From: Nemertoderma westbladi | Taxonomy: Eukaryota; Animalia; Xenacoelomorpha | Assembly (NCBI GenBank): GCA_032718475.1 | Contig: JAUCBJ010005935.1 | Span: 1 to 64,000, forward strand | Reading direction: 5' to 3' | Length of the DNA: 64,000 nucleotides | Shown here: positions 4,946 to 37,300 of the stretch, in pieces | Layout of the letters: each line of letters opens with the position of its first letter | How positions within the stretch are numbered: the stretch's first letter is position 1 | Position numbers and translations under genes: made by a program | Notes under the pieces: generated by a model | What the model was told of the DNA's origin: nothing | What the model saw: only the letters and a program-made list of their open reading frames with translations | The model's database searches: none

Positions 4946-4989
4946 AAACAAATTGATTCGTCTGCCATTCATTATGTGCGTATGGTTGC

Positions 4990-10300: not shown

Positions 10301-13300
10301 CCTAGCGGCAGACAGGGGAACTTTAAAGTTTGTCTGAATTTAGAATTTCTAAATAAACAATGCTTGTAGGTGTAGGTCACTCTTACCAAATTTCAAGAAG
10401 ATATATCAACCATACATAAAATATGTTCAAACAAAAATAATGCTTTATTAAAACTTTTATTACTTTAGTTTACTTAACTGTGGTAATTACATTGCAAGTC
10501 TTACAATTCATGTTACTATTCATGTCATTTTTTGAGAAAGTTTGACTGGCCCATTTGTTTCAAAATTGATTTATTAAATTAAATGAACGGGAAAAGGGCC
10601 ACCTTTACTATCATAAAGAATGAGATGATTTACATTAGGGCCACAAATATACATCTTTTACAGTGTCCCATTTCCATCCAAATTGATCTTACAAATAAAC
10701 TGAACTGTAAGAATGAAGAGAAATAAGATAGGGCCATTGAGTTATATAGGTACACTATACCTACATATCTCACTTTATAGATATATAAGTTGGCCCTTTC
10801 GCTCGTTTTTTCATCTTTATGTATGTATATTAAAATGGTATATGTAGGAACATATATACACAAGATATGTAGATATACTAATGGCCCTTTTTACTTCCAT
10901 TCTGTATTATATAGGTACATAATACCCTTAATTTCAAAGATACATATCTATGGCCCTTTAGGCCGAACGTACATATATATATATATATTATTTCTTAAAA
11001 TAGAGCATATAGTACTTATTACTTATTAATTCTTTATGATTAGGTACATTAAATTATTATTTTAATAATATTCGATAATATCAAATTAGATATTAAATTG
11101 TTATATCTTATCAGCTACAGAGACAAAAAGACAAATTATATAGAATTATATTCCCTAAATGCCGTGGATTTTCAAAATTTTATTTTATTCGAATTAACTT
11201 TGTAAAGATTGCTTTGAGTTCTCATTCGTATTTGTTCTATCATTTGAACGCCTATTGGTCAAGTGGTTCAGTAGCTCAGTCGGTAGAGCGTTGGAAATTA
11301 TAATAATAATAATAATAATATTTAATAATTTGTATAGCGCCAACATTACCGGTAGTATTCTATGGCGCTAATCAGAGTTAGAAAAGAAAAGAAAAGAAAA
11401 GTAATAAGCAGGTAATAAACAGGTGAGTCTTTAGTTTTCCTTTGAATGATGCCGTAGACTGGATATCACGTAGCGAAGCTGGTAGTTTGTTCCACAGCCG
11501 GGGCGCGCATACCTCGAACGCCCGCCACCCGAGAGTGTAGCACTGGAACCGTGGTTCGACGAGACTTACTGTGCTACAACTTCTAGTTTGGAGGCGATCG
11601 CGACTAACTTTATGGAGCATTTCGATTATATATTTGGGAGCGTGGCCCACCAAGGCCTTGTGCGTCATCAGCAGTCAAATTATATGTGTAGTAGGTATTG
11701 AGTTCGAATCCTAGTAAGTGCGAATTATTTTTTGTGCAGAATTTCAACTCATTTAAATTGACCGCTACAAATTAATTGCATTTGTCTGTACCAATGAGAC
11801 TGTAGTTATTTGATTGTAACCAATGTCGTGCAAGTTATACATTAGCTGGACCAATAGCTATCTTTAAAACCTTGTTAGAACCTATAGAACAATCGAGAAT
11901 TTTCTCGATTGATTGCGGCACAAATTTGGTATATAAAGGTGCGATTTGTTCATTAGTTATCTCATTACTCTAACCATATTCGTATCTCTGAGTTATCTAA
12001 TATTTGTTTATTCTGTCATTAGTATTCAGATTACATTTTGTATTATTATCTGCAATAAATTCAGAAATACTGCTATCTGCCTTTCTTTTCACCATGGATT
12101 CACTACGGTGAACAAACCTAAGGGACAGGATGGCCGGCTAGAGATCGGGCCGCAGCAATGAACGGGAACATCACAGGAATGTAGACGAGAGACAACCCGC
12201 AATACCATCTTGAGTTATTCGCCCATCGCCTGAAAGGTTAGACAGCGTTCGACGCCTTGCTACCCAAGTGTAAGACCAAAAGATCAAAAGGTAGAAGTAG
12301 TGACACGCTGTGAGCCTAAAATTACATCTTAGGGACTGTACTGTCTTGATTCAGGAAAACCACAGTAGACCTTCATATTCCTACGGGGTAGAGGGAAAGA
12401 GCAGGCAGATACTAGTACGCAGATAGGACGTAGGCACACCGGTACGAAGCATACAAATTGGTAGGGTGCAGCAAACTGTACGCCTAACTCTTGCTAAGTA
12501 CAGGTGTGTGTGCGACTATTTGTAGTACGACGGTGTCCATTGCATTAGAGCTTGTAGGCTAGGGGTTGCTGTGTTTTCACCTGAATTGGGATTGTGCCGT
12601 TCAGGCGGTAGGGCAGTTTACAGCTAGGCGCAAATAAATTGAGGCTATTAGGGATACTAACATCTACCGTGTCCCCGCCAACGCCCTAATAGGAAGTTAC
12701 CCGGACTACCTGGGTGACTAAAATTCTAGATAGGAGCCAGGATAGCTATTAGTAACTGTACGCCTACAGTAGTAAACTAACACATCTCTTCTTAGTATCA
12801 GGGACCTGGTACCTAAAATTGCCGAATTCTGGGCGTAGCATTAACCTTATGCCTGAATTTGAGTCCTGGAAATACGCAGGAGGGGAAGGAACCTTATCAT
12901 TCGTGAGTATTGGACCTACAAGTTGCAAAATTAGAATATTCGTAAAATACACACCGTACCCAGTAATTATATATGTGAAGGAGCAAAACTGTTTTTGACC
13001 GTTCAGAATTAACACACGCGCGTTAGAAATTATTTACACCTCAAAATATATAAAATTAACTTTGTCCGTACTGTGCTTTGCCCGCTAGTTAGACATCTCC
13101 AAATCTCTGCCTGTACCTAGCTAGCGTCTCTTCGCCCAACCATATAAATCACACCGCGGCAAAGTATACGAGCCCCTTAGTCCATCAGTGAGTCAGCCTG
13201 ATTTTAGGATTCGCTGCGCGGGATTTTGTTTCATCGAAGTTTGTCTGCTCGTAGACTGTTTTCTGCCTCACCGGTTATAAGAGATCGATACTGCAATATA

Positions 13301-16300
13301 TTCGCTTACTTAGAGTTTACTGTTTTGGTGAGAAGGTCGGATTTATGATTTGATTTACAAACTTTACAGTAAGATATTGCAGGTATTGTTGCCGTCTCTT
13401 CGTATAGTAGGAATATGTTTTACTGAACTACGGTTCGGTAGGACTAAAGTTATTTGAAAATTTTGTATTTTGAGGTAAAAATTTATATTTGATTAGCTAA
13501 GTGCTAATTTTTTGAAATAAAATTTGATTTGAACCGCGTGTAAAATATTTTTGGAATTGAATACCGGTGTTTAAAAAGGGTTTAAATACCATATTGTACC
13601 GGTACAAAATTTTCGTAAAGTAAAACCTAACTCTTTTGTTTTTTCAGGATTCAGAACTCATTTCTAGACTGTAACGGGAGCAAGACCGTGTTTAGCAAGT
13701 TTGGGAGATAGATAACTCAACAACTTTGGTTGGGAAAATCGCGCTTCGTCCGCAACGCTGGAAACGGAAAGGTTCACGTTCGGTTTGTATCTGGGAATCT
13801 GTTTTTCTGGAGAATTATTGGAGTGGGTGAGTTCGAAAGGTTGCATAAATAAGTTAGGCATTACCGTATTAGTTAAAATTATTGTGGGTTCCACTGTCTC
13901 AAGTATTTATGCATTCCGTATGATTTCTTTGTTCATTGCTGAATTAGTCCGTATTATTGTATTTAATTTACCTTTTGATAACGCATATCGTTATCCGATT
14001 TATTTGTTATAAAATTGGCCGCTAGGCTAATTTTATTATATACTTATTCCGTGACATTTATTTGCTGTAAAATTGGCCGTTTAGGCTAATTTTATCCATC
14101 TGCTATAAAATCGGCCGGTAGGCTAATTTTATATGACTGTAATTAGTACCGTTTAGATATAAAAACGGTAAGTTTGATACTTTGACACTCACTTTACTTG
14201 ACTTGCAACTACCGAAATGAGTGACAAACAAGACTATACGAAGAATACACCTACCGACTATGACTCATGTGACGGAGATAAGTCAGCAGAGGAAGAACAA
14301 CAGGGGAAGACTCGCGAGCCTACCGAACCTACACCGTGTGCGTCACCAGTACATCCAACGGGAGTACCGGATGCCGTAGTACGAGGCGACGGCAGGACCG
14401 AGGACTTTCTAACTGTTCCGCAACCTAGATATAGGGAAACGGAATTGGTAAGTTCAGCAGGAAGCACAGAAAGTGTGGTTAGAAGCGTCGGAGGATACAT
14501 GGCGCATATAACCAGGAGTATTGGAGAAGGCCAACGCATATTAGACGAGTTGACCGCTCCGATGTCTCGGTTCGAGTTCTACACTCTACAGGTGAGAGTA
14601 CAGAGTAAAGTATATAAGTCCGTAGATAACCTAATTGGTCTACAAGATCTAGCTAGACAGAGACAGGATATGGACACTCAGCTTAGAATCCTCGAGAAAC
14701 TAATGATCGCTAGAGAGAAACTGATTCAGTTTAAGTCGACGATTAGACAGATACAACAGGAACAAGCGGACCAGTTGTTAGGTGAGTCAGTTTCGGACGA
14801 ATTATTGCAACCCGAGGAAGAACAGGAACTGTACCGACTGGATGGACAATTGAAACACCTAACGGATCACTTACGCATGTGCGGCGAGGACGTCGGAGAT
14901 TGGGAAACCGTGCCGGAGGCTACGAGGGAAACTTCACTCGCACAAATCGAACCGGCACCGGGAACACTAGATCAATCACTGGTGAGTATTCGCAGCGAAA
15001 TTGGCGAGGTGAGTATGGCTACGTCAGAAATTGCTCGACAACAGCAGATCTACAGACAACAACAGGAGTGGGAGGAACAAACTCAATTACTAATGGCACA
15101 AGTAGCAGCAGAAGAAGAGAAACTACGCGTTGCGAATGTTGCGAGAATCTCTCATCTGCAAGAACAAGCTGAGTTGGAAGTAGCCGAAATGGAAAGGTTA
15201 GAGTTGGACATTGCACAACAAGCAGCAGCGGCCGAGTTAGCGCAACGAACGGCAGCGGCCGAGTTAGAGCGACAAGCGGCAGCGGCCGAGTTAGAGCGAC
15301 AAGCGGCAGCGGCAGCGGCAGCGTCCGAGTTAGAGCGACAAAGGTTAGCTTCAGAAGCGAGAACCGAAATGAAAAAACGGCAAATAAAGGCTCAATCAGC
15401 GATACGACAAGCGGAGTTCGAGGCGCAACAACAACAAACGGAACAACGCGAGAAAGAAGTTAAACTTCGTTTTGAACTCGAGAAGAAGGCGAGAGAATTA
15501 GCCAACGCCAAGGAAGATCTGGATCTACAAGCCCGCGATCGATCAATGAGATCTCGAGACGGACATGACTTGGACCAGATAGAGGTAAGACATCGCCAAA
15601 TTCAGGAACGGAAGAAGGAAGGAAGCGTAGGAGCACCCGGACGGGAACGACAATTAGTAAAGGACTTGTGTCAAAGATTCCCACAGGTAACTCATATGTT
15701 TGCACCGGTTACGACTAAGGAACCTGTTTCGATTGCGGGTAGTAGTAACATTTCTCCTATCCATGGTGCGACGGAACACAGGTTTGTTATTCCGGACGAG
15801 TTTACACCGCCAAGAGCAACGTCGTCGCCTATTCCGAAAGTCAAGGTAAGTAACCCACCGATTACAGATCGTAGTAGTTTGTTGACTGGACCTGCACTAC
15901 TGACGACTAAACAGGTGAGTCCACCGTCGACACCTAAACCCGTTACACACTACGCTTACCCAATGACGTTTCGACCTACAAGGCCAGTTGATTCAAATGC
16001 TGTCATTCGCCCACCGGTTCAGTTTACATCGCAATCTACGACTTCGAGGAAGACTTGTGAGCCTACCGAACAACGGAGAACAGTGGATACGCGACCGAAC
16101 CAGTTTACATCGCAATCTACGACTTCGAGGAAGACTTGTGAGCCTACCGAACAACGGAGAACAGTGGATACGCGACCGGTTCAGTTTACATCGCAATCTA
16201 CGACTTCGAGGAAGACTTGTGAGCCGAACAACGGAGATCAGTGGACGATGTTCCGAAACGAAACGTTAGAATTCGTACGACGCAACGGACGCGAGCACGT

Positions 16301-19300
16301 CGACCGCCATATCCAGATGATAGTAGTACTTCGAGCGAATCGGATTACCCGAAACGCGAGGTATTTAGAACAGGGGCGGCCGATGAATATAAACGCGAGC
16401 GTTCAGACAACTCCTTTGTAGACAATCCTCCACAGAATACACCAACACCGAAGGCGTTACAACCAACGGACGCAATAAGTACACAACAGTTCGCCGACAT
16501 CCTGCGACCAGTTGTTAACAAGTTGGCTCAGATCGAGGAACGTCTGGAGGAAGGTTACACCGACAGTTCGAGAAATTCCGAATTCGAACACAATAGACAC
16601 CCGAAGGAACCACAAAGACCGGTACCTTCAAAACATACATAGTATCAGGGAAAAGCGCCAAGAAGGGAGAACATCAACCAGGTTACCAACCAAGGACGCG
16701 AAACTCTGAACGTTGCCGAGGAGATAGCGAAATTCGCAGCGAGACAAGGATTGCCGGTACAACAACCACCGAAGTTTTCCGGTAGTTCAAAACACTGGCA
16801 CACATTCGTAGACTATATCGAATCTCAGATCGCCGTGTGCGCCTTTACATCACGGGAGAAGTTTAATTACCTGCTTCAAACGTTGTCAGGAGAACCTAAA
16901 CGTTTGGCAGAGACCTTCGTTGGTGTACCGGACGCCTTCGAACTAGCGTACGATCGTTTAACTTCGATATACGGAGGTACAGTCAGTATGGCCAGGTCAG
17001 TAATAGAGGAACTCTGTAAGGGAGGGGCTATCACAAAACCCGTCGACTTATTAAAACTGGCCGACGAGATAAAGAACGCTATCACTACTTTAAGATCCAT
17101 TGGACAACTTGATTACGGGAATACCCCTACAGTCCTATTAAAGATCATAGGACGACTCCACCATCGACTTCGTCGGGAGTGGAGAAAGATCGAATACCAG
17201 CGAGAAGAGCGGGGTGGATTCTTAAAACTAGAGGATGTGTACCTTTTGATATCCAGGGAAGCAGTTGTAGAGACTCGATCCAACTACACTGACCAGCACA
17301 TCGTAGCAGAAGGGATCACCTTGCCATCCTCCAACCGACAAAAACCCCAGACAACATCCACCAAGACGGCCACTTACGCCACACCGACGGAATCACGACA
17401 ATTCTCGGACGGTAGTAGGGTATCTGCGCCCATTGGGACGAAACAGACTAGACAACAACTCAGTACCGACTTCAGCGGCTGCCAATACTGCGAGCATTTA
17501 GGCAAGCGGTATATCGGTCACAAGTTGCGAGGTTGTCGACAGTTTCGCGAGTTGAACTCGGAAGAACGACGGCTGCAAATACGACCATTGGACTCTTGTT
17601 GGCGGTGTACGCGACACGGACACGTCCGTAAAGATTGCCCAAATACCGACACTTGTCCATCCTGTGGACGCAACCACGACGGTCTGCTCCACACAGACAG
17701 CCACACGCCGACAAAACGCTTCGCCAGGGAACACCCGGAAGCAGCAGCGAGATGTGATGCGGCCTACAAAAGGCGAGAATCGAAAACGACTCCAACCTTC
17801 GTGACCCATATTGAGGATTGCTTCTCAGAACAATCCGGATCGTCGGACGAAGAGTCAGAAGACGACGACGTATATTCGGATGGATATGAACAGCCATCGA
17901 TCGCGCTTCTGACTACTGACCAACTGAAGGGATTCAGTGTAATTCCGATTAAGGTTACTGGCACAAAGGGGAGTAAGAGAATCTACGCGATTCTAGATTC
18001 AGCCTCATCTCACAGCTACGTGGATGAAAAGATAGCTGATGTAGTGACGGATCTCCGACAAGGTAAGCACGTCAGTTATACCGTAAGTAGTATGCACGGA
18101 CAGCGTGCAATACCAGTGACACGAGTCAAGTTAAACTTAGACTCTCTTCTTCCGAAATCGCAACACAGCGAGAGGGAGAGGTCTTTGTTACCCTTCAAGG
18201 ATTTGACCTTTGCGGCCACAAAAGACTTTAGTAACCTACTAGGTCCGGTCCCAGAACAATCCTTGGAGGACCGTAAGTATTTCAGACACCTTGGTGTACC
18301 TGAATGTCCTGTCAATTATAGATCGGTAGCCATGCTGATCGGGACAGACCAATTCAACCTACACCAAGTGTGGGAAACCAGACCATCGGCAGTTGTAGCG
18401 GGAAACGCATACGCCTGCAGAACGCCGATAGGATGGTATACTCGAGCGCCTGTGCGCACACTGGACATAAGTGACGAGGAAGACGATGTACAAAGTACAT
18501 GTAGTTTATTAAATACAAATTCAATTCATTCCTTCTCACACGACGTGAACCGTACTACCTTACAGACAAAACATAACAGACGTGTAACTAGTATGATAAG
18601 TCACAAGGAGCAGCTAATCCACCAGCGGAGTTTAGAACTTGGGGAGAAGACGAGTCAGCTAGAGATTCCATCGACGACAGATGATAACGCCGGAAGGCTT
18701 GCGAGTCTACCTACCCCAATGACATCAACGAGGCCCGTCGATATCGATGATGACGCGTTGAGAAATCATCAAATGGAACAAGCTGTACTGGACAAAGAAT
18801 TAACGGAGAAGACTATCAGGTGGTTAGAACAAGATACAGCTGAACCTGGTAGCTACGAACCTTGTATGTCGGAACAGGAGAAACAATCTCTGAAGATCAT
18901 GGAAGATACTATCCGACAGACGGAGGACGGACATTACGAGGTGGGGATGTTATGGCGTAGCCAAAGTCCTAAACTTATAAACAACTACCCACTAGCGTTA
19001 AGACGTCTACACTCAATCCGACAACGTCTATTAAAGGACGAGAAAGCCCATCTGCAGTACAACACTCAGATGGAGACGTATTTGACTAAGGGATACGCTA
19101 TCCGAATGACTAACCCGGAGCGAGTGACTGACCAGACGTATTACTTGCCACATCACTACGTGAGACACCCCGACAAACCAGACAAAGTACGCGTAGTCAA
19201 CGACTGTGCGGCTCTGTTTGAGGGAATGTCCCTCAATAGCGAGTTGATGGATGGACCAAACATGAATAATTATCTTATGGGGGTGATTATGCGCTTCCGT

Positions 19301-22300
19301 CAGCGTCAAGTAGCTTTTACTTGCGACGTTGAAGCGATGTTTCACCAAGTGAGAGCGTTAGAGTGAGACAGAGACAGTTTGAGGTTCCTCTGGTACCCGG
19401 AAGGAGACTTAAGTCTACCACCGGCGACTTACCAAATGCAAGTTCGCGTTTTCGGTGCCAGAGACAGCCCAAACTGCACAATGTATGCCCTAAAACAAGC
19501 CGCTAGAGATCAGAAACACCTATATGACCCAGAGATAGTTAGGATTGTGGAACGTGACTTTTACGTCGACGACGGATTACAGAGTTGCGACACAGTAGAA
19601 CGTGCTACAACAGTAGCACATCAATTACGGGACTGCTTAGCGGGCGGAGGTTTTAACCTCACCAAATTCGCCTCAAACAGTGCCGAATTAGTAGACTCAT
19701 TCGGAACGACTGAGCGTGGAGGTGGTGACATAGACCTAGAGTTCGAACCACTACCGACGACCAAGGTGTTGGGGCTCTTTTGGGACCCAAACACGGACAA
19801 CTTCCGAGTGAAGGTGAGACTGGACAGTCAAGAGAACACACTGACAAAGAGATCATGCTTGTCAAAATTGAGCCGATTGTTCGATCCGTTAGGATTCATC
19901 AGTCCAGTGATACTGCAAGCCCGCATTTATATGCGCAGTATTTGGAAGGATGGACTAACATGGGACGAGCCGATCTCATCAGACCAAGTGGACTTATGGA
20001 AGACCTGGGAGGCGGAATTATCTTCGCTAGAGGATTATTCCATACCCAGAGTTTACTTTCCATTACAAAGTACATTTCCTGACAACTTGGAACTACACTG
20101 TTTTTCTGACGCCAGTGACAACGGTTTTGGTGTGGCAGCGTACTTGCGCAGACAAGTAGACTCAGAAGCATTCGATGTTTCGCTCATTACTTCTAAGGCA
20201 AAAACAATGCCTACTAAGTATATGACGACACCACGAGCTGAGCTACAAGCCGCAACACTATCAACCACCATCGTAAACCTTATACAGACAGAACTACAGT
20301 GTTATTTCTTCGCTAGAGGATTATTCCATACCCAGAGTTTACTTTCCATTACAAAGTACATTTCCTGACAACTTGGAACTACACTGTTTTTCTGACGCCA
20401 GTGACAACGGTTTTGGTGTGGCAGCGTACTTGCGCAGACAAGTAGACTCAGAAGCATTCGATGTTTCGCTCATTACTTCTAAGGCAAAAACAATGCCTAC
20501 TAAGTATATGACGACACCACGAGCTGAGCTACAAGCCGCAACACTATCAACCACCATCGTAAACCTTATACAGACAGAACTACAGTCAAGTTTACAGATA
20601 TTTTATTGGACTGACGCGACGTTGGTTTTATTTTACATAAACAACGACACACTTGAATTCAAGACATTCGTAGCTAACCGTCGCGCAGAAATTCTAGACC
20701 GTTCAATAAAAGAGGATTGGCGACATTGTCCCGGACCACAAAACCCAGCTGATATTGCGTCGCGAGGAATGATGCCTGAGGAATTCTGTAAACCGGAGAA
20801 CAAAGAATTTTGGCAACACGGACCACAATTCTTACAAGGTTCAACACTACATTGGCCGCCACTATACGACAACAAGTCTAACACTATCCCTAAGGACGCG
20901 GAAATCAAGAAACCAAAAAAGGGGAAGGCAAAGAAAAAGACAACGGCGGCAAAACTCAAGAAAAAACCGAAGGCGAAATGGAAAGATATAACTTCAAAGG
21001 TCAAGAGAGGAAGACTTGCGAGCCTTTCTACACCAGACATATCGCCAGACGGTCAACCAGACACGTTACTGGACGGTCAATCAGACATTCTACCAGACAT
21101 TAGTAATGTATTGACTAACAGTAAAGCCGCAGTTTCCCTATTGGAGCGGCCTTGTATTGACAAACTACCAATTTTGACACACTTGAGCAACCATAAGCAC
21201 GGTGAAACCTCATGTATTACAGATGTGGGTAGTACCTACGCTAATGTAAATACAGGTGTTACTTTGCGCTCAAGAGACATACCGAACTTGCAACCTATGG
21301 TGAAACCTGGGATTAATGTCGGCAGAAAATTAAGTTTACCGAAACCTGCTGACCCCATAGAGTTCAAACCACCACCATTAACGATCGACTTACAAAGTAC
21401 CGACAATCAAGGTAAGAAGACGAAGAAGGACAAATTACTTGTAGACCCGGACGGATCAACAGTCAACAAGGGAATACTTACCGGCGGACCCGTGGGCCCT
21501 TCTAGTAATTCAAAACCTTCCAAAATCTCCATTGACTTACCTGATGACGTCACAAATACTCACGTCGACCGGATTGTAAACTTAACAGACTCTTGGTCAA
21601 ACGCTTGCCGAAAGTTAGCGTGGATTGTACGTTTTGTACAATACGTTAAAGGCAAACGTGACTTTACACGTCGACTTACATTGGCTGAGATTGACAGGTG
21701 TGAGATTAAATTAATTCGCCATTACCAACTGCGATATTTCGCGCGCGAATTCACATCTATAAATCAAGGTCAACCAATCAAGTCGTCACCAATACTGAGT
21801 TGGAGTCCGATTATTTATAATGGCTTAATTTGTCATAAATCTCGGCTTCAAAACATTGACTTTAACACAAACTTTAGGTACCCAATAATAATACCGCAAC
21901 ATCACGAACTACAACGTGCAATGATACTGGACGCACATTTACATCTGAAACACGCTGGAAGACACCACTGTCTTTCCTACTCACGTACAAGATTTGTATT
22001 AATTAGACCCAGTAAAGCGTTAAGTTCAGTGACACGTACGTGTATTATTTGTAAAAAGGTACATTCTAGAATCGGTACCCAAGAAATGAGTGAACTACCA
22101 CAAGCACGACTTCAAGCATTCAGACCACCTTTTACAGAGACTGGAATTGATTGCTTTGGTCCCATACATACGAAACGTGGACGTATACTAGTAAAACGCT
22201 GGGGACTGATTTTCACATGTATGTCCAGTAGGGCAGTTCACATTGAACGTGTGATGGATCTTTCCACCAACGCGTTTATACTAGCACTGCGGCGATTTAT

Positions 22301-25300
22301 CGCTAGACGCGGACTAGTGAAATGCTTGTACTCAGACCAAGGGACAAACTTTGTTGGTGCTCGGAATGAGATTGCTAGAGCCTTTAAGAAATTAGATCAT
22401 GATCAAATCTCGAACGAACTACAACCTCATAAGATTGTTTGGAAGTTTAATCCTCCAGATAGTCCATGGAGAGGCGGAGTCTGGGAGAGATTGATTAGAT
22501 CTATCAAGACAGCCATGGCAAAGGTCATTCCAGTAAACCACATACTGACAGACGACCAACTGACAACATTGTTTGTTGAAATCGAGGCAATACTAAATAC
22601 TAGACCAATAGTATTAGTACCCGATGACAAACAATCTCAGTTCGCTTTAACACCTGCACACCTGCTTATGCAGGCACCGACTACTTTGACGCCGATTTCT
22701 ATTCCAATTGAAGGCGATAGCTACGGTAGAAAGGCGTGGAAAATCACGCAACTACTGGCTAACAAATTCTGGGAAATATGGCAAAACCATTATTTGCCCT
22801 CTATTTCTACCAGAACAACTTGGTACAATAACACCCGCGCATTAAAGCCGGGAGATCACGTGCTGTTAGCAGAAGTGAATCTAAAAAGACGCTTCTGGAT
22901 AACAGGTGTAATTTTAGCCACACATCCATCTATGGATGGAGTGACAACAACTGTGACGGTACGGACAATTGACGGTCGTACAGTAGACAGACCGACTCAA
23001 CGTCTCGTACTTCTTGAAGAGACTCGTAACGAGTCTGGAGACTACAAATCTCCACCTAATACTAGTAAATAATTAGGAGTTTACAAATAGATTTCCACGT
23101 ACCTGTACACCGTAGTAAGGACAGCGGTAGAATTCCATTGTCTTTTTATGTGAACATTGAGGGTAGTACCCTTATGTGTCACATAGGAGCGGGATTTGTA
23201 GGTATAAGAAATTGAATTCTACTTGGAACTCACAATATTGAGACATTTTCGAAATTTTAGACAATCCATTTGGATTTGAAAAATTTTAAAATTTTCTCCA
23301 GTGAATAGATTTCAGGGTACAGTCGGGTGGAACTTAAAATTAGAGAAACAAGAGAGGAAGACTTGCGAGCCTTTCTTAAAATTTTAATTAAATTTTACAC
23401 GGTCTTGTTTCAATAAGTTACGTCAATAAATAGACTCCCCTATATTTATTACTAATTCTTGACTGCTTATTTTCTGATAATAGTTTGGGATCAAAAGGTG
23501 AGTATTTTAGACTCACAGCCAGTTTAGCCCAAATCCGTTTTTATTTCGGCAAAAAATTTTAGATAAGAAGCAGCGTGTCATTAAAGAAACCCTAGATCTT
23601 AGGCTATGGGTAGGAGGTTAGAGCGTTGTCGAGCCCAAAGGGCAGACGAAAACTCTCACGTCTCCTCACAACTAACTACAAACTCTGTTGTATTCCCTCT
23701 AGTAGTAATGATTATGTAACTACACCCCTAATTATGGAGAAAGGGATACAAGGAGAGCCGAGATGGGGATATGATATCCAAGAGGAAGCAGCAGCGCCAT
23801 TCGAAAGATTTGGAGCCAAGGACTACACTATATTTGGTATAAAGGAATTATCAGAAAGTACAGCGAAACTCGCAAAGACTAAATATGACAACCCTTCTAC
23901 AACTCCGACGCTCAGTGTAATGCCTTTACTCGAGCAGGATTTAGTATATTTCGAGACGTCTATCTTCGCTGTGCGGGATCTCTTATCGAAAGACCATCTA
24001 TGTTTACATTGTTACCCTATGAAGGAGAACGTATCGTGGAGATTACGGATGAATCACGGCAGACGCGCGCGCCTATCGGTCACCTTGGTGATGATTTCGA
24101 AGTAACTACTACGATCACTGACGATCCTTTAGAGGAACTTATTGAGATAGAAAGGAACCTCCCGAAGAAATCTCAGACGGAGATTCGACAACTTGAAGCA
24201 ACAGATGCTATAGTTTGTATACAACCTTCAGAAACCTACCAACCCATAGATCCAGATGATTACGATTATAGTGTGGGCGGAAGCGCTCGACCGATTGGAG
24301 ATCTTATATACGAACGAGTGTGGTACCCTGCCAATACGATGTGTAGTAAATGTGGCGTCGCTGGACATCATATGACAAAGTGCAGTGGAAAGCACATTAC
24401 TACGACTCAGCTAATCTGTGGATGGTGTGGGGATCAAGGGTCTCATACCTTTTATACTTGCTGGAGATTTATGGCTCAATGTACTTATTGCAATATAAAA
24501 GGGCATCGAGCATCTGAATGCCAACTAAGAGACATACCTTATGAACACGAATCTGTAAAACTCGTGAGGAAATTATTTGATGAGTGGGAAGATTTAGCCG
24601 ACGAACATGTATCGGCACAAAGAAGACGGTTTCCGATGAGAGCGCATCTTGGATTTTGGGCGGTAAATCCTCAAACGATGATGTCGGAAGGATACATCTC
24701 CGCTAGGCCCCAATATGACGAACTTATCGAGGTAGTCGATATTTTGCCCCACGACAGCGGATTTCGAGTAGTGCGCGAGTATCTACTACAGATTCACCCG
24801 GATAACAAAAACACGTGGAATTTTCAGAAAGTCGTTAACCGCATTACGTATGGTGAATTCGATCGTTTCCGAACTGAAAAGCGGAACAAAGGAGCTTGGT
24901 TAACCGTCGCATGGGCGTACCGAGCCGCGTTTTACCATAAACGTATACGAGCGAGCGTATTCGTGGAAGAAAAGGTCCTAGAGGCGACAAATATACCAGC
25001 CACTCCGGTTGCGCCGTCTGCACGTCACCCTCGGGAGGACGGACAGGGTAGGATCATACGGGTCCAGAAAGTGGGCCAACAATTAAAGAAAATTATTAAT
25101 ATAGAAGAACGCAAGGGAGTTGAGCCGACCATTCGAGTTACTCGGGATACGGTATCGCTTCCAAGAGAACCAGTAGGAGGATCGGGACATACACCAGCTG
25201 ATCAACAGGGGGCGCAAGCTACTCTTGGGTCTGCGTCGTCCGCTTCTCGCGCGTTCCCAGACGTTCTACCAACTGTAGTGACAACTGATCGGTCACGAGG

Positions 25301-28300
25301 AATCGGTCGAGGTTTTGGGATGCCAAATAGACGAATTTGCGAGGAAATAGTCGCACCGTCTCTCAACGTCCCAAGTAAACCAGTGACTCGTCCCATTAGT
25401 CCCATATCGCGAGCAAAGTCACCTGTGCGCAGTTTTCGAGGACGCGGCAGGGCTCGATCAACTAAGCGATAAAAGGGAGGGCAAGGGTGGACGGAAGACT
25501 CGTGAGCCTTTCTTGTGAATTTGTGATTTATTTGAATTTATATTTATATTTGTGTTTATTCCGAACTTATGCAATTTGTATTGTTCCGAATTTATGAAAT
25601 TTAGAAATAAGAACTCATATTTAGTAAGATTTATAGTTAGTAAGAATTTATATTTGCAAGATTTATATTTTGTAAGAATTTATATTTTATATTTGTGATT
25701 ATTCCGAACTTATGCAATTTATATTATTCCGAACTTATGCAATTTATATTGTTCCGAATATTATGCAATTTACATTTTATAGGCAGTATTACAGTGAAAT
25801 AGAAAGTAAGAGTAGATGGAAGACTCGTGGGCCTTTCTTATAGTTTTATTTGTAAAGTGTTATATTTTGTATTTAGAAAGTTTTATAGTCAGAAAGTTTT
25901 GTGCTTAGAAAGACTCATATTTGTAATTATTCCAAACTTATGCAATCTACATTTAGGTACGAAAGTATTTGTAATTACTTGAATTTATGCAATATTTGAG
26001 ATGCAATAGTAGATGGAAGACTCGCGAGCCTTTCTTATCGTTTTCATTTATTTGTATTTATAATTGTTTGAATTTATGCAATATTGAGATGCAATAGATT
26101 TATATTGGTGAATTTAATTTAGATTTATATTGTACTTACTTAGTAAAGCCTTAAATACGTAAAGTTTGAATTTGTAATTATTTTTGTATCGAATCATTAC
26201 GTAGAAAGGAAGTATTATTTGAAATTTAATTTGTAAATATGTAAGTACGCCCTAAGTATTCTATAGTTTGATTGATTATTGGTGAAAACCGTATATTTTA
26301 TGCACGATAATATCCTGTTTTCATGGAGCGGTATAGAATTATATTCCCTAAATGCCGTGGATTTTCAAAATTTTATTTTATTCGAATTAACTTTGTAAAG
26401 ATTGCTTTGAGTTCTCATTCGTATTTGTTCTATCATTTGAACGCCTATTGGTCAAGTGGTTCAGTAGCTCAGTCGGTAGAGCGTTGGAAATTATATGTGT
26501 AGTAGGTATTGAGTTCGAATCCTAGTAAGTGCGAATTATTTTTTGTGCAGAATTTCAACTCATTTAAATTGACCGCTACAAATTAATTGCATTTGTCTGT
26601 ACCAATGAGACTGTAGTTATTTGATTGTAACCAATGTCGTGCAAGTTATACATTAGCTGGACCAATAGCTATCTTTAAAACCTTGTTAGAACCTATAGAA
26701 CAATCGAGAATTTTCTCGATTGATTGCGGCACAAATTTGGTATATAAAGGTGCGATTTGTTCATTAGTTATCTCATTACTCTAACCATATTCGTATCTCT
26801 GAGTTATCTAATATTTGTTTATTCTGTCATTAGTATTCAGATTACATTTTGTATTATTATCTGCAATAAATTCAGAAATACTGCTATCTGCCTTTCTTTT
26901 CACCATGGATTCACTACGGTGAACAAACCTAAGGGACAGGATGGCCGGCTAGAGATCGGGCCGCAGCAATGAACGGGAACATCACAGGAATGTAGACGAG
27001 AGACAACCCGCAATACCATCTTGAGTTATTCGCCCATCGCCTGAAAGGTTAGACAGCGTTCGACGCCTTGCTACCCAAGTGTAAGACCAAAAGATCAAAA
27101 GGTAGAAGTAGTGACACGCTGTGAGCCTAAAATTACATCTTAGGGACTGTACTGTCTTGATTCAGGAAAACCACAGTAGACCTTCATATTCCTACGGGGT
27201 AGAGGGAAAGAGCAGGCAGATACTAGTACGCAGATAGGACGTAGGCACACCGGTACGAAGCATACAAATTGGTACGGTGCAGCAAACTGTACGCCTAACT
27301 CTTGCTAAGTACAGGTGTGTGTGCGACTATTTGTAGTACGACGGTGTCCATTGCATTAGAGCTTGTAGGCTAGGGGTTGCTGTGTTTTTACCTGAATTGG
27401 GATTGTGCCGTTCAGGCGGTAGGGCAGTTTACAGCTAGGCGCAAATAAATTGAGGCTATTAGGGATACTAACATCTACCGTGTCCCCGCCAACGCCCTAA
27501 TAGGAAGTTACCCGGACTACCTGGGTGACTAAAATTCTAGATAGGAGCCAGGATAGCTATTAGTAACTGTACGCCTACAGTAGTAAACTAACACATCTCT
27601 TCTTAGTATCAGGGACCTGGTACCTAAAATTGCCGAATTCTGGGCGTAGCATTAACCTTATGCCTGAATTTGAGTCCTGGAAATACGCAAGAGGGGAAGG
27701 AACCTTATCATTCGTGAGTATTGGACCTACAAGTTGCAAAATTAGAATATTCGTAAAATACACACCGTACCCAGTAATTATATATGTGAAGGAGCAAAAC
27801 TGTTTTTGACCGTTCAGAATTAACACACGCGCGTTAGAAATTATTTACACCTCAAAATATATAAAATTAACTTTGTCCGTACTGTGCTTTGCCCGCTAGT
27901 TAGACATCTCCAAATCTCTGCCTGTACCTAGCTAGCGTCTCTTCGCCCAACCATATAAATCACACCGCGGCAAAGTATACGAGCCCCTTAGTCCGTCAGT
28001 GAGTCAGCCTGATTTTAGGATTCGCTGCGCGGGATTTTGTTTCATCGAAGTTTGTCTGCTCGTAGACTGTTTTCTGCCTCACCGGTTATAAGAGATCGAT
28101 ACTGCAATATATTCGCTTACTTAGAGTTTACTGTTTTGGTGAGAAGGTCGGATTTATGATTTGATTTACAAACTTTACAGTAAGATATTGCAGGTATTGT
28201 TGCCGTCTCTTCGTATAAATTACATAACAAAAAATAATGACAATAATATTTATAATGTAATAATAAAATATATTAATAATGCAGGAACATGTTATCATAA

Positions 28301-31300
28301 AAATATTCAAAGAAATGTTAGAAAAGCTAAAAATGAATCCTTAGAAAAATAGCTCAAATGTTCAAAATACAGGAAATTAGAATTAAAATGAAATACGAAT
28401 TGAAAATAATTAGTTTAAGTCATCAAAAAAATACACCTTCTTTAGCAGCTGATGTGCATGTAAATATTGAACATTCATTGCAATAAACCACATGTGTAAC
28501 AGATTCTGAGTTCGTACACATTTAGCGATTCTGTATAATTTGTTTCAGTCTACACAGCACGGCTAAAAATATTTAATTTATATAAATATCATTGGAGAAA
28601 CAAACCTGCTAGTTGTAGCGTTCAATAACTTCCCAAGGTTCGCCATTCTTCCAAAAACTACATCATCGTACATTGTATCTAATTGGTTGACTAGTATATC
28701 GGTTGACATCTCCATGGCAACAGGGTCCCCGGTAATCACTAAATCAACGAGGTAATCCGAATCCAAAACGAATACCTAAAACAATAAAAATCAATATGCG
28801 ATAAAAGGCAACAGAATAATTATAAATATTATTTAGTAACTAATTTAATAATTTGAATAATGTTTAATTAGATAGGCCTATTCAAAGACTAATATTTCCT
28901 AACTAATATAACTTACCAGTAATTTGCTTGTGGCACGCCTATCCAATGGAATGCCAGGCTTTGACACGGTTACCATAGTTTCGTATGACTGACCAACAGG
29001 CAGCGATTGATTGTAACCAGTTCTGACTACCCCATCCACATCAACAGTAAGGATTGGATCGTTTACAGAGTAGAGTAACAATGCTGACAATCCATCTGGG
29101 TCGTGTGCCGTTAACTGTAATAAGTAAAGTGTATGCTATATTTAACGAAATTGAAGGTCTATGTTGTGTATACATATATGCACATATATGCGATTCTTAA
29201 TATGATTTTCAAAATATACAGTTCCTCCTGCTTATTGTTTTCTAATTGTTTAAACACAATCGTGATTTAGAAAACTATAATATATCCCGACAATATTTAA
29301 CAATATTTACCTGTAATATTGGTGTATTCGGAGGTGATTGGAATAGCTGTGCTCCGATAATGATCGTTTCAGTAAAATACGGAGCTTCATCATTCTCATT
29401 AATCACGTCGATTATTAAGTTAATCTTGTCCCCAAGAAGTCTGCCATTATCATCTTCATACACCGGAATCTGTTAAGGAACCAATCAAGGATAGTAACAA
29501 ATAAGTAGAGAGTTATTGTGTAGAAAATTATAGACCAGCAGAAATCTGTAGCATAATAGGATAGAATAGCAATGTAAACGAAATGAAAAATAAGTTAAAT
29601 TCATATTTATAAACAGCATTGCTTCTTCCAGTCCTGACAAAACCAACACAATAAGAAGATATTTATCCTCCTCATGATTTCTTTGTTACTGTTTATGGTT
29701 TGAAAATGTCACCACTAATATAGCATCACAGCTACTTTCCCGTAATTGATGGCAGCGCCGCCGGTAGATATGAGTAACATGCTTTTCTTTCAGCGGTTGC
29801 TATCACTGACCCATACGATATCATGGTGTGCCCATACAATGTGGTCTTCCTTGCTTTGGATGTGAAGCGATTTCGCAGCACATGTAGTACAATATCAACC
29901 TGTGACATGCCCAGCCAATACGGCGCCGTACATAAATGTGCCGCGAAATGCAATGATGTGTTGTGATATGCGTTACCACGATATAAAATTATTTGCTGTA
30001 GAATGACTTACAATGCGGTACTATACCGCGCGATACAGACTGCATGGGTTCCCTTTCAATGTTTCATACAATGCCGGCGCTGACAAGTTATTAAAATGAT
30101 ATCCATTACATGCTATGCTGCGGCTTATTATGGTCTGCCATTATCTGCTGTGCTATGCCACTGCTACCATGAAAACCAATAAATCACCAAAACACACCAA
30201 GCCAACTCATGTATTGACGTGTGGCACTGTGGAGTGTTATGATGCGCCACTCCATTGTCATGTCATACCCCATGATATTTTGTGATGAGTGTCAACCCGT
30301 AATCTCCAACGCCCTTTGATTCACCAGCCCTACTCTGTCATTCTAGGGCTATGTGGAGCATTGTAAACGTGCAAATTTCTTGACTCGCAGCTACATTATT
30401 AATTACACCGCTACCCCAACCCCACAACATAGCTATGTCACCAATGAATGCAGAACACCGTATAAAAAGCAATTAGTAAGTGGGTTGGGTAGCTATGTCA
30501 TTTCTCAAACATGAGAACCGATTATGTAAAAGACACCAATCAAAAAATAACACAAATTTTTTTAGTTATTATTTTCAGATCGTGGATAAGCAATCGATGT
30601 AAAATTATGTATAAAAATGAAATAGATAGATAGCAAATTTTAGGAATTTTAGGAATCAATATATTATATTTAAATAAATATAAATTATTAATTATCACCA
30701 TGTACATACATCTCTACGACGCCGTCTTCTCTCATTATCGGAGTCGGTGGGCTCCTGAGGAAGGAATATCTGTATGAAGTATTGTTTGCGGCCTTCGTAA
30801 TCGACGCCTCTGACCAAGAAGAACTTGTTTCCGATGATCGCCCAGACACCACCGGCGTCCCCGGACAGTATCTGGATGTCGCCACTTCCCCCAAACACCG
30901 GTAGGTTGGTTCCTTCCAACTGGAAGGGAGGGGTTGCCAGCTCACTCACTGTAGCTTGGCTATATAAATAAAATATATAAATATATTGGTAGATTGTTTG
31001 TTGTAGCTTCTCTATTATACATGTAAAACATTTAAATATGTTTTTAGTTTTATTCACAGTAGGCCAAAAATATATAAAAAAACTCCAGCCAAAATCTATT
31101 TATACGACAAACCAAAGCTCATATTCCTTCCTATCCTATAAAAGCTCCTCCTATTCGATACATTCTACCCGAAGGTAGGGATAGGAGCTACTCTTATACC
31201 TAGTTTACTCCCAGTAATTCAACTGGTCCTCAATTAATCGACCCTCTGGAAGGAAGGCTGAGTAAACCCTGGCGAACCGACAATACAATATAAATACTAA

Positions 31301-34300: not shown

Positions 34301-37300
34301 AAGGTCATATTTAACTATCTTTTACTTATTGTGTACATATAAATTATTAAAAGTTAGGTTTTTTAACCAGGTCGGCTTTATCTTGTTAAATAAATTAAAG
34401 CAAACAATTAATATTGAACTATTTTTGAGAGGAAAATATAGTTTAGGGAGTGAAAATAAGACACCACAAAGTCAAAGAGTTAAATAGGTAATATTAAATA
34501 AAGGCCCACAGAGAATGAGAATTGGGTTCTTTCCTTTATATTCTATATTACCTTGAGGCATCTGGTATGTTGCAGTCCTGGTCGTAGACTGGAAGTATCT
34601 GATCGATGGACACTGAGGTCTGCGCGAAGTTCATCTTAAGTATTTCTTCTAGGGCAGATTGATGGTCGACCACATCAGTTGGTGTCGCCCCGGACAACAC
34701 GAACTGGAATCTATCCGAGTCAGTAACCACCAAAATCTATTGGATAAATATAAACACAGTAAACAATCTATAAAGTATCGATGTATAATGTACAAAATGT
34801 ATAATATGGATACAAAATTCTTCCGATATGCTGGTAGCAATGCGGCAGCTTAGCATAGTTGGTGCACCTTAACAGATATAGGGGATAGCAGCAATGCGCG
34901 TCAGTAGTGTAAGACAGCCCATCACTAAGAGAACAGGAAGAAAAATGTGCAAAGTACCAACAGTTTATGGTGAGACATAAATAATGCTTACCCAAACATC
35001 AGCAGTGTCCAACTTCTCCGCCTTTTCATAAAGATCCACATTAAAGTTATACGTCTTTCCAGAATTGTTTTCCAAAGAAGATACTAGATTTATATTACCA
35101 TTTACAGTGTCCAAACTGAAGTCACCGGATAGAGTCGATCCATCAGCTAACTTGTAGCTGACATCGGCATTCGCCAGTGGCACCTAAAACGGTATTAAGT
35201 ACAGGTAGACACATTGAAATTGTCTTTCTAAATCGCAGACATTTTTTTACAACTAATGCTATCCATCGCAACAGCTAACCGAAACCCCATAGAACTCTCC
35301 AATAAATCCTATGAATATTATTAATTAAAGACAAATAAATATAAATTCAATAAAATCTTGTGACGACTTCCACTCAACTAAACGCATCCCTGGATAAAAA
35401 AAAGCTATATGTTATAGGCTATATGGCTATACCAGGATTTCACTTTTCGGTCGACTTTTTATTGGAATTTTATCTATGGAGATTTTTCATTTTTTTTTAA
35501 TTTATCTTTATTAAGTGTTTTATAGCGCTTATTTCTATCTTATAACCTGTACATATACTAATTCGTTTATTGTTTTGGTTAGATTCAGCCTTTCTGTAAC
35601 CTGTTTTTTTTCAACGGAAAGTCTGGTATTCTTCACACATGGGCCGAAGCAAAGCCACATACATGTCTGAAAGCTTAAATCGAATTAAAGCCAAGTCTAT
35701 TGTTCACATATGTACGGTGGCTAAATGTGGCCAATTTAATTAATTTTAAAAATGGGAAATATAAAAAGAAATTAATGAAATATAATTCCTTAAAACAGAA
35801 ATTAATCAAATTTAATTCAGCCAGAAACAGAAATTAATCAAATATAATTCAACCCAAAACAGGAATTAATCAAATATAATTCAACCCAAAACAGGAATTA
35901 ATCAAATATAATTCAAACATTTTGGAGGGAAATTTAAAATACTGTCTCAGTGCAGTGCAGTAAATTGTCGTTTCCTTTTCAGTCTATCAGTGCAGTACTG
36001 CAGTAACGGTTGCCCGTAGCTCTGTAAGCTTAGTTCTGTGGTTAGTTGTTAATCTTTTAATCACTACAGCACTACTGACTACCGATCTACGTAATGATGG
36101 TAGTACAAAATGTCATGATGTCATGGGTGATAGGGAGTTGTGGCGGCGCAATTTTGTCGACAAGCCCGCACAGCATTCTTAAAAATGCAGCTGCAATGCA
36201 GCATGCAGATACTAGTAGTACACCTGCAGTACAGTTCTATATACAACTACTGAACTAACTAATCCTACGGAATTACCGGTCTTTCTGAAGATTGGTAAGG
36301 TAAAGCTGCCGGATTGCCCCGTAGTCAGGTCGTATCGGTCTGTTGGTAGTCAGTAGTGATTAAAAGATTAACAACTAACCACAGAACTAAGCTTACAGAG
36401 CTACGGGCAACCGTTACTGCAGTACTGCACTGATAGACTGAAAAGGAAACGACAATTTGCTGCACTGCACTGAGACAGTATTTTAAATTTCCCTCCAAAA
36501 TGTTTGAATTATATTTGATTAATTCCTGTTTTGGGTTGAATTATATTTGATTAATTCCTGTTTTGGGTTGAATTATATTTTATTAATTTCTGTTTCTGGT
36601 TGAATTATATTTGATTAATTTCTGTTTCTGGTTAATTATATTTGATTAATTCCTGTTTTGGGTTGAATTATATTTGATTAATTTCTGTTTCTGGTTGAAT
36701 TATATTTGATTAATTTCTGTTTTAAGGAATTATATTTCATTAATTTCCTTTTATATTTCCCATTTTAAAATTAATTAAATTGGCCACATTCAGCCACCGT
36801 ACATATGGCTGACAGGTTTATAGAAGTTTCTCACCTGAACGCTGCCAATATTAGTATAGACTGGTGTATTACTAGCGATTCCGAATAGGTATGGAAATAG
36901 CGACTTCGCGAAGTTCGGCGTGTCATTCACAAGAACAACCGTGCCAATAGATCTGGAGAAACCTGGAAAATGCAAGAAAACATTAAAATGAATTAGTTAA
37001 TTACATAATTTGTAATTTTATAAATAATTAGTTAACCAATGGCCTATTGGTTTGGGAAAGCTTATAAATTATTACCTGTATTGGTATCCATGATAAAGTT
37101 GAGAACATAGTTAGAGGCAACATCGTAATCCAATGACTTTATCAAAGTGATTCGACCGGTGCTATCAACATTGAATGTGTCGCTAACAGGCTCAATACGG
37201 TATGAAACTATAGCCGGGTTGGTGGGTAGCTGACCAATTACAGTTCCTGGGGTCTCATTCTCATCAACTGATATCTCGGGAGTCCTGCAATAATGATAAA

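What the first reader, a model, noticed from the sequence alone, without database searches (positions are those of the whole stretch)
14305..26034. Ten dispersed copies of a 20-nt hairpin motif along the element, in coding and non-coding parts
Seen: GGAAGRCTYGYGRGYCTWYC on the + strand at 14305, 16048, 16129, 16210 (truncated), 18692, 21009, 23356, 25493, 25818 and 26015. It is read in two different frames (GKTREPT/RKTCEPT versus GRLASL) and also occurs in UTRs, so the conservation is at nucleotide level. It folds as a stem with a YGYG tetraloop; the 18692 copy swaps an A-C mismatch for a G-U pair. Coding copies fall only in inter-domain linkers. I did not notice it outside the element. Inference: a distributed packaging, export or dimerisation signal bound by an element protein, possibly ORF3.
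Basis: partly seen in the sequence, partly recalled or inferred. Interest (0 to 1): 0.85.

Follow-up and report, generated by a model that had tools for sequence, protein, structure and literature searches.

The report
Twelve covarying hairpins along giant retrotransposon
A 17-kb BEL/Pao retrotransposon carries twelve copies of one 20-letter self-complementary motif, whose paired letters change together, in its protein linkers and untranslated parts; they likely act as RNA hairpins bound by the element's own extra zinc-knuckle protein, which would mark the long unspliced RNA for export.

Summary
Real. All twelve lie on the + strand inside a 17,079-bp BEL/Pao LTR retrotransposon; none is in the LTRs or the rest of the window. 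Pairing is conserved: 60 of 60 cells pair, 3 with double changes, and six one-sided changes all fit G·U pairs on the sense RNA. Coding copies sit in linkers; the two Pol linkers are about 100 and 200 residues longer than in relatives. Caveats: only about seven placements are independent, the sense-strand hairpin is predicted weak, and no related family was found, so cross-family conservation is untested. ORF3 is an orphan three-knuckle protein; one DNA contig shows its spliced form. Best reading (0.35): Rev-like binding sites for ORF3. Rivals: Gag packaging signals, RNA-RNA pairing points. The scan had not noted this motif before; it holds one unchecked note on a different hairpin array in a Perkinsus retroelement.

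The parts
11134..11138 (+). 5-bp target-site duplication, left copy
   Evidence: same 5 bases flank both ends
11139..13406 (+). 5' LTR, with a 374-nt foreign insertion at about 11303-11676
   Evidence: blastn 164/164 and 1726/1730 identical to the 3' LTR
13407..13417 (+). primer-binding position; no tRNA-type TGG start; 11-nt complement lies inside each LTR (12374-12384, 27185-27195)
13827..23702 (+). intron of the ORF3 subgenomic RNA (GT..AG; holds 8 of the 12 motif copies)
   Evidence: joint 13825->23702 in one DNA contig of run X4; donor GTGAGT, branch-like CTAAC near 23672, pyrimidine tract and AG in the sequence
14005..14175 (+). four strong leader hairpins, unrelated to the 20-mer, between splice donor and gag start (psi-position candidates)
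   Evidence: z -2.9 to -4.9; repeat family D12
14217..16642 (+). gag N-terminal part (coiled-coil and Pro/Thr-rich); reading frame changes in 16220-16420 and a stop at 16640
   Evidence: no Pfam hit
16643..19366 (+). capsid (DUF1759), three Gag knuckles, protease, start of RT; stop at 19364 inside RT
19367..23072 (+). RT, RNase H region (Peptidase_A17), long linker, integrase (H2C2, DUF5641); 280-nt tandem duplication 20021-20300/20307-20586 with a frame change
23889..25472 (+). ORF3: 527 codons stop to stop, three CCHC knuckles at residues 152, 177, 198, Arg/Ser/Pro-rich tail; its true start is unclear (an upstream frame opens at ATG 23734)
   Evidence: no full-length relative
26332..28217 (+). 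3' LTR, 1886 bp, termini TATA...TATA
28218..28222 (+). 5-bp target-site duplication, right copy
14305..14324 (+). motif copy 1, gag N-terminus
16048..16067 (+). motif copy 2, gag linker, tandem unit 1
16129..16148 (+). motif copy 3, tandem unit 2
16210..16229 (+). motif copy 4, tandem unit 3, 3' end lost
   Evidence: E 1.1
18692..18711 (+). motif copy 5, protease-RT linker; G·U in place of A·C
21009..21028 (+). motif copy 6, start of the RNase H-integrase insertion
21483..21502 (+). motif copy 7 (new), end of the same insertion; double changes at pairs 4-17 and 8-13
23356..23375 (+). motif copy 8, non-coding, between pol and ORF3
24058..24077 (+). motif copy 9 (new), ORF3 N-terminal part; double transversion at pair 8-13
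25493..25512 (+). motif copy 10, 3' UTR
25818..25837 (+). motif copy 11, 3' UTR
26015..26034 (+). motif copy 12, 3' UTR

Best explanation
The twelve copies keep their base pairing as they diverge and likely fold as short hairpins in the element's sense RNA, where the three zinc knuckles of the element's spliced ORF3 protein would bind the two loop guanines and so mark the long unspliced RNA along its length for nuclear export, in the manner of Rev. Shown: the copies, their orientation, covariation, the invariant A·C (once G·U) position and the two invariant loop Gs, their seat in enlarged linkers and UTRs, the knuckles of ORF3, a DNA copy of the spliced form. Inferred: folding in the cell (probably protein-assisted, since the free hairpin is weak), ORF3 as the binder, export as the outcome. 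In this model the spliced ORF3 RNA is made first, ORF3 then coats the roughly 15-kb intron-containing RNA at sites about 2 kb apart, and the four copies that stay in ORF3's own RNA would allow feedback. That the motif is a structured RNA signal of some kind I put at about 0.8; that ORF3 is its partner for export at 0.35.
For: Covariation: 60 of 60 cells paired, 3 double-change cells, 0 of 500 shuffles as high for three of five measures (10 of 500 for the other two), slid registers 32-70% paired. Parsimony: 16 changes, 3 at the free pair 3/18, none of the rest leaves a broken pair beyond the kept A·C; six one-sided transitions (positions 9, 11, 13, 19) all give G·U on the + strand and would give A·C on the other, about 0.016 as coin flips (rough). 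Copy 21483 has double changes on both sides of the A·C position yet keeps it, which one template-switch event would not do (inference). Loop Gs at positions 2 and 4 are invariant; HIV-1 NC knuckles bind G9 and G11 of the G8-G9-U10-G11 loop (PMC7599994, passages). ORF3 has three knuckles and 13 Arg/Lys and 7 Ser in its last 50 residues; its only credible matches are to knuckle clusters. A spliced form is seen and 8 of 12 copies are in that intron. Both the motif-bearing linkers (RNase H-integrase span 335 residues against 87-169 in 166 of 166 homologs) and ORF3 are peculiar to this lineage, while Gag knuckles are general. Precedent for a spliced accessory export protein in an LTR retrotransposon: CERV of Cer1 (PMC10309623, passages).
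Against: No binding or export data. The sense hairpin is predicted weak and mostly unformed in context, and the opposite strand folds better because A·C reads G·U there. The shuffle control ignores kinship, the structure was read from these same sequences, and the 10 rows stand for about seven placements. Four copies stay in the spliced RNA. No nuclear export signal was tested in ORF3, and its model is uninformative (pLDDT 33). Gag has three knuckles of its own. The splice joint rests on one contig in 1 of 4 runs with a 29-base short side. No RNA run is on record. Conservation in other families is untested.
Confidence: 0.35

Rival explanations
1. Multiple dispersed packaging signals: Gag nucleocapsid knuckles bind the same hairpins and condense an unusually long genome into the particle.
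For: Same structural evidence. Dispersed stem-loops with a shared loop motif are the hallmark of packaging-signal-mediated assembly (PMC6281560, passages). The spliced form, which keeps 4 copies, exists as DNA and so was likely packaged at least once. The element is 17 kb against 4.2-10 kb usual (PMC8742986, whole text).
Against: Not selective for genomic RNA (4 of 12 in the spliced form). A separate cluster of strong hairpins sits where psi usually lies. Gag knuckles are general in BEL/Pao, yet motif-type peptides occur in only 3 of 221 homologs, singly (blind to non-coding copies and other motifs).
Confidence: 0.22
2. RNA-RNA pairing points: the 20-mers are pseudo-palindromes that pair with each other, within one RNA (compaction) or between two (dimer linkage), helped by NC; 18692 would be a preferred partner.
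For: The loop is self-complementary in all 10 distinct rows once G·U is allowed (pairs 9-12 and 10-11), which also explains fixed G with variable pyrimidine. Self-duplexes are -15 to -25 kcal/mol in 9 of 11 rows against monomers of -0.4 to -4.9; 18692 pairs with the others at -20 to -32. HIV-1 DIS and MoMuLV DIS-1/2 are pseudo-palindromes that go from hairpin to extended duplex (PMC7599994, passages).
Against: Any hairpin can self-dimerise. The 16048 type is no better than background (39th percentile) and 21483 and 24058 pair poorly with the others. It does not explain the fixed A·C. Many interchangeable sites should invite mis-registered deletions; none of the 15 joints shown runs motif to motif (56 not shown).
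Confidence: 0.15
3. The hairpin is read by a host protein (localisation or stability factor), or works on the minus strand (antisense RNA or cDNA).
For: The minus strand gives lower energies for 10 of the 12 copies with RNA parameters. Host-bound retroviral RNA elements exist (MPMV element binding NXF1, PMC10309623 passage; SPRE, PMC8579622 passages).
Against: One-sided variants break pairs on the minus strand (pair 2-19 open in the U19 copies); with DNA parameters hairpins are near zero or unstable on both strands. No Rfam match; SPRE core shares only GGAAG.
Confidence: 0.1
4. A neutral mini-repeat spread by tandem duplication and template switching into places that tolerate insertions; symmetry kept by quasi-palindrome repair.
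For: Several copies plainly arose with larger duplications; 28 identical bases at 21002 and 23349; copies sit in dispensable linkers.
Against: Flanks of most copies are unrelated while the 20-mer is kept; palindrome repair should erase the A·C position, which survives in 11 of 12; all copies face one way; CpG-type changes in the loop are C-to-T only, never G-to-A.
Confidence: 0.1
5. Double-stranded DNA sites for ORF3 as an anti-silencing factor, like VANC on VANDAL transposons.
For: Many same-orientation motifs specific to one element, spread by duplication, beside an element-encoded accessory protein, as for VANC21 (PMC5735166, abstract and section 8).
Against: Compensatory pairs and G·U-type asymmetry are not needed for duplex DNA recognition; 8 of 12 copies are coding and none is in the LTR; CCHC knuckles bind single strands (established knowledge).
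Confidence: 0.08

Closest known systems
BEL/Pao LTR retrotransposons (Belpaoviridae)
   Same: LTRs, 5-bp target duplication, DUF1759 capsid, three-knuckle Gag, PR-RT-RH-IN order, Peptidase_A17 and DUF5641.
   Different: 17,079 bp with 1.9-kb LTRs (usual 4.2-10 kb and 0.2-1.2 kb, PMC8742986; up to 16,272 bp in the Flow group, PMC3118150 passage); third ORF is a knuckle protein, not env-like; no tRNA-type primer site; TATA termini; enlarged linkers holding the motif.
Cer1 CERV (C. elegans) and HIV-1 Rev/RRE
   Same: Accessory protein at the env position, made from a spliced RNA, in an element that must export an intron-containing RNA.
   Different: CERV has no recognised RNA-binding motif and the passages read name no RNA target; Rev binds one structured region. 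Here the protein has CCHC knuckles and the candidate target is twelve near-identical short hairpins spread through coding and non-coding RNA. No sequence relation shown.
Multiple dispersed packaging signals (MS2, picornaviruses, hepatitis B virus)
   Same: Many short stem-loops with a shared loop motif along the genome, individually weak.
   Different: Those vary widely around a small motif and bind capsid protein; these are near-identical 20-mers in an LTR element and the partner is unknown.
HIV-1 SL2/SL3 NC-binding loops; HIV-1 DIS and MoMuLV DIS-1/DIS-2
   Same: G at loop positions 2 and 4; pseudo-palindrome able to form hairpin or duplex.
   Different: Known ones are single sites in the 5' leader; these are absent from the leader and repeated through the body.
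VANC/VANDAL anti-silencing system (Arabidopsis)
   Same: Element-specific motif multiplied in one orientation together with an accessory gene.
   Different: VANC binds a 9-bp duplex DNA motif in non-coding DNA of a DNA transposon; no base-pair covariation is involved.

Membership tests
Belpaoviridae (BEL/Pao) | Two LTRs and a target-site duplication | tested here: met
   99.8% identical LTRs, 5-bp duplication
Belpaoviridae (BEL/Pao) | Gag with capsid and nucleocapsid; Pol order PR-RT-RH-IN; BEL/Pao-type domains | tested here: met
   Pfam DUF1759, Peptidase_A17, Integrase_H2C2, DUF5641; three Gag knuckles; best homologs carry the same Pfam set
Belpaoviridae (BEL/Pao) | Genome 4.2-10 kb, LTR 0.2-1.2 kb (descriptive range) | tested here: not met
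   17,079 bp and 1,886 bp against PMC8742986; a range, not a diagnostic
Belpaoviridae (BEL/Pao) | 18-nt primer site complementary to a tRNA 3' end | tested here: inconclusive
   no TGG start after the LTR; 11-nt complement inside the LTR instead; host tRNA set not available
Belpaoviridae (BEL/Pao) | Placement in a named clade by RT tree | not tested
   no labelled references were fetched
Rev-like export system | Accessory protein from a spliced RNA | tested here: inconclusive
   one GT..AG joint in a DNA contig of 1 of 4 runs plus consensus splice signals; no RNA run on record
Rev-like export system | RNA-binding domain in the accessory protein | tested here: met
   three CCHC knuckles by sequence; binding itself not shown
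Rev-like export system | Structured response element in the unspliced RNA | tested here: inconclusive
   8 of 12 copies in the intron, 4 outside; covariation met, stability weak
Rev-like export system | Protein binds the element and is needed for export; export signal | not testable with these tools
   needs binding and localisation experiments
Multiple dispersed packaging signals | Many dispersed stem-loops with a shared loop motif | tested here: met
Multiple dispersed packaging signals | Bound by the capsid/nucleocapsid protein and needed for packaging | not testable with these tools
   no protein-RNA tool
Retroviral dimer-initiation palindrome | Self-complementary loop; duplex stronger than hairpin | tested here: met
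   10 of 10 loops self-complementary with G·U; 9 of 11 self-duplexes in the best 6.3% of background, 16048 type not
Retroviral dimer-initiation palindrome | One or two sites in the 5' leader | tested here: not met
   no copy in 13407-14216; twelve in the body
VANC-type DNA target | Dense motifs in non-coding DNA, read as duplex DNA | tested here: not met
   8 of 12 coding, none in LTRs, pairs covary
Described RNA families (Rfam 15; SPRE) | Match to a family model or core | tested here: not met
   0 matches at E up to 1 in 11000-28500; SPRE 17-nt core differs

The most novel reading that the evidence does not exclude
An LTR retrotransposon has evolved its own protein-RNA address code: an orphan three-knuckle protein from a spliced third gene and a 20-nt hairpin that the element has copied into nearly every tolerant linker and UTR, so that the whole 15-kb RNA is tagged about every 2 kb: a distributed Rev/RRE, the RNA-level counterpart of VANC.
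Probability: 0.3. Interest if true: 0.88.

Novelty: new variant of a known kind. Interest (0 to 1): 0.7.

Why it matters
How BEL/Pao elements select, export and package their RNA is essentially unknown (PMC8742986 calls replication poorly understood), and the passages read on CERV, the one spliced export factor of an LTR retrotransposon that my searches listed, name no RNA target. Here a defined 20-nt candidate, natural variants that act as built-in controls, and a candidate binder sit in one element, so a binding test with short RNAs and isolated knuckle domains would decide the matter. If true it would show that retrotransposons can build a distributed recognition code by inserting a signal into protein linkers, and would give a compact new protein-hairpin pair. 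Even if ORF3 is not the partner, near-identical dispersed structured signals in an LTR element did not appear in my searches (open-licence library only).

Tried and rejected
Whole genome: none held, so genome-versus-element counts are limited to the window. Relatives with DNA: viral contigs by integrase and by motif gave none; metagenome contigs by ORF3 gave none; the motif scan gave 26 loci, each a single match, 0 of 26 with blastn or tblastn similarity to the element: chance. ORF3 relatives: none in the word-indexed search; 3 weak hits among 1.84 billion representatives, two to knuckle clusters and one spurious; Atlas leads under 0.9 to fungal knuckle proteins; no solved-structure hit; single-sequence fold useless, so no fold search. 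Family-level test: in 25790-26060 only 7 substitutions and 3 gaps were listed; 1 of 7 falls in a motif (25830, keeps the pair) where about 1 is expected, and it may come from contigs of the 25493 copy: no power. In one search none of the 40 substitutions shown (1062 not shown) lies in a motif, about 0.6 expected: no power; a 9-nt gap at 18686 in 3 of 4 runs removes the first three positions of copy 18692 and leaves the inner pairs. No RNA holder listed. Contig depths were not used. Candidate 21957 was dropped: perfect stem but other loop, no A·C, inside the integrase zinc domain, 8.2 bits, E 0.18. Regular spacing of clusters (1.7-2.6 kb) was not counted as evidence because domain sizes dictate it. 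p53-, ETS- and CTE-like resemblances were considered from memory only and not pursued. Supplements of papers were not read.


Full report
The observation. A weight matrix from 8 of these copies, blind to pairing, ranks two more next: 24058 (21.5 bits) and 21483 (13.9 bits). In 1000 shuffles of the internal region such scores arose 0 and 21 times per 1000, and 0 of 136 chance hits of 10 bits or more kept all eight pairs, which both new copies do. A covariance model of 10 copies finds 11 sites at E below 1e-5 (its own training set plus 16129), the damaged 16210 at E 1.1, and nothing else significant; the best outside hit is E 0.16. No Rfam family matches. The genome is not held, so 'absent outside' holds for the window only.

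The element. LTRs at 11139-13406 (with a 374-nt insertion) and 26332-28217 are 99.8% identical and flanked by a 5-bp duplication: a recent insertion of 17,079 bp. Pfam gives DUF1759, Peptidase_A17, Integrase_H2C2 and DUF5641, and 101 plus 260 homologs (221 listed) are BEL/Pao polyproteins, the best-scoring at 37% identity or less. This copy is broken: a frame change at 16220-16420, stops at 16640 and 19364, a 280-nt duplication in the RNase H region. The family is abundant in organism A (three studies) and partly covered in organism B. After pol lies ORF3 (23889-25472) with three CCHC knuckles and a basic Ser/Pro-rich tail. It has no full-length relative; its credible matches are to knuckle clusters, one in a copia-type polyprotein. 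One DNA contig of run X4 joins 13825 to 23702 with GT..AG ends; the donor, branch-like sequence and acceptor are textbook. So ORF3 is likely made from a spliced RNA that has also been copied into DNA; this rests on one contig in 1 of 4 runs. The intron holds 8 of the 12 copies.

Independence. 16048/16129/16210 are one 81-nt tandem repeat, and contigs in X1 and X3 skip 168 nt there. 21009 and 23356 share 28 bases. The three 3' copies lie in duplicated AT-rich units. About seven placements are independent.

Structure. In 10 aligned copies (16129 left out as identical to 16048, 16210 as damaged) G1, G2, G5, C7, G10, G12, G14, C16 and C20 never change. Six stem pairs are kept in 60 of 60 cells, with double changes at 4-17 (one copy) and 8-13 (two copies); 0 of 500 shuffles reach this on three measures, 10 of 500 on the other two, and slid registers give 32-70%. 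That control ignores kinship and the structure was read from the same sequences, so it is support, not proof. Position 6-15 is A·C in 9 rows and G·U in one; 3-18 is free; loop positions 9-12 and 10-11 are always complementary if G·U is allowed. A parsimony tree needs 16 changes; six one-sided transitions all give G·U on the + strand, roughly 0.016 as coin flips, which favours sense RNA over duplex DNA or the minus strand. Against this, ViennaRNA finds the + hairpin weak (-0.4 to -2.0 kcal/mol for most), formed in 120-nt context in 1 of 12 copies against 4 of 12 on the minus strand, where A·C reads G·U; with DNA parameters neither strand is stable; z-scores are unremarkable. The program does not score A+·C pairs or protein help. 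The 18692 swap could be one inversion of the motif's centre; it also makes 18692 the best partner of every other near-consensus copy (-20 to -32 kcal/mol over all ten others).

Position. The RNase H-integrase span is 335 residues here and 87-169 in 166 of 166 homologs; the protease-RT span is 330 against a median of 224 (1 of 53 reaches 300). Copies 18692, 21009 and 21483 lie in these additions; the gag N-terminal region and ORF3 have no homolog to compare. Motif-type hexapeptides occur in 3 of 221 homologs, singly.

Conservation across the family could not be judged. Collections gave no related DNA, and family contigs showed too few variants: 1 of 7 substitutions in 25790-26060 falls in a motif, keeps the pair, and matches expectation.

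Mechanism. The data describe a short, weak, sense-strand hairpin with a fixed internal A·C, fixed flanking G-C pairs and two fixed loop Gs, multiplied into tolerant places along the RNA. Fixed identities on top of covarying pairs point to recognition by a protein (inference). G at loop positions 2 and 4 is the pattern HIV-1 NC knuckles read in SL2 (PMC7599994, passages). The element has two knuckle proteins. Gag's are general in the family, whereas ORF3 and the motif-bearing insertions are both peculiar to this lineage, and ORF3 has the position and spliced origin of CERV, which Cer1 needs for export of genomic RNA (PMC10309623, passages). A separate strong hairpin cluster occupies the usual psi position, freeing the 20-mer for another role. 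I therefore commit to ORF3 binding for export (0.35), ahead of Gag packaging signals (0.22), RNA-RNA pairing (0.15), host factor or minus strand (0.10), neutral repeat (0.10) and VANC-like DNA sites (0.08). Binder and outcome are inferred, not shown; the first three are not exclusive.

Known systems and novelty. The element works like, and by domains is, a BEL/Pao retrotransposon, outside the size range and without the tRNA primer site given in PMC8742986 (whole text; PMC3118150, passages). The motif is not a member of a described RNA family. It resembles dispersed packaging signals (PMC6281560, passages), retroviral dimer palindromes and, at DNA level, VANC targets (PMC5735166, abstract and one section), and fails a defining feature of the last two. 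Searches (listings only, open-licence library) showed no report of such repeats in an LTR element; subscription papers and supplements were not seen. The scan's notes hold nothing on this sequence and one unchecked note on a different hairpin array in a Perkinsus retroelement leader, which I did not test.

Verdict. Observation confirmed and extended; structure supported within the element; function open but directly testable. New variant of a known kind, interest 0.7.

Noticed in passing
window 13407-13417 and 12374-12384 / 27185-27195: The 11 bases right after the 5' LTR are the exact complement of a stretch inside the LTR and do not begin like a tRNA primer site; a lead for self-priming as in Tf1/Sushi, Tcn1 and TAR (PMC6317226 passages). 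Against: the inferred start site (TATA at 11930) lies about 420 nt upstream of that stretch.
   Followed up: partly
window 14005-14175: Three related AT-stem hairpins with GC-closed 4-5-nt loops and a fourth hairpin, z -2.9 to -4.9, between the splice donor and the gag start: the classical place of a packaging signal.
   Followed up: partly
window 11139-11142, 28214-28217: LTR termini are TATA...TATA, not TG...CA.
   Followed up: no
window 25567-26082: Eight TTATG(C/A)AAT repeats in AT-rich duplicated units of the 3' UTR, interleaved with the three 3' hairpins; resembles a bZIP site (from memory).
   Followed up: no
window 26460-26530; 11303-11676: tRNA-like A- and B-box sequence near the LTR's 5' end (no tRNA called); in the 5' LTR it is split by a 374-nt insertion that begins with a (TAA)n run, likely the tail of a non-LTR element in reverse.
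   Followed up: no
window 13383-13647 and 23316-23497: Further consensus splice signals suggest a leader intron and a small non-coding exon holding copy 23356; no joint shown for them.
   Followed up: no
window 45613-51111 (-) and 56872-63954: Two arrays of 399-411-nt repeats, 30 copies at about 85-100% identity; the first is an open frame of 1832 codons on the minus strand with no Pfam domain above per-domain threshold.
   Followed up: no
window 35707-36807 and 804-1768: Long inverted repeats (275 nt at 99%; 80 nt with 21-nt subunits), foldback- or MITE-like.
   Followed up: no
window 4932-5996: GC-rich, strongly skewed stretch open in four frames, likely a simple tandem repeat.
   Followed up: no
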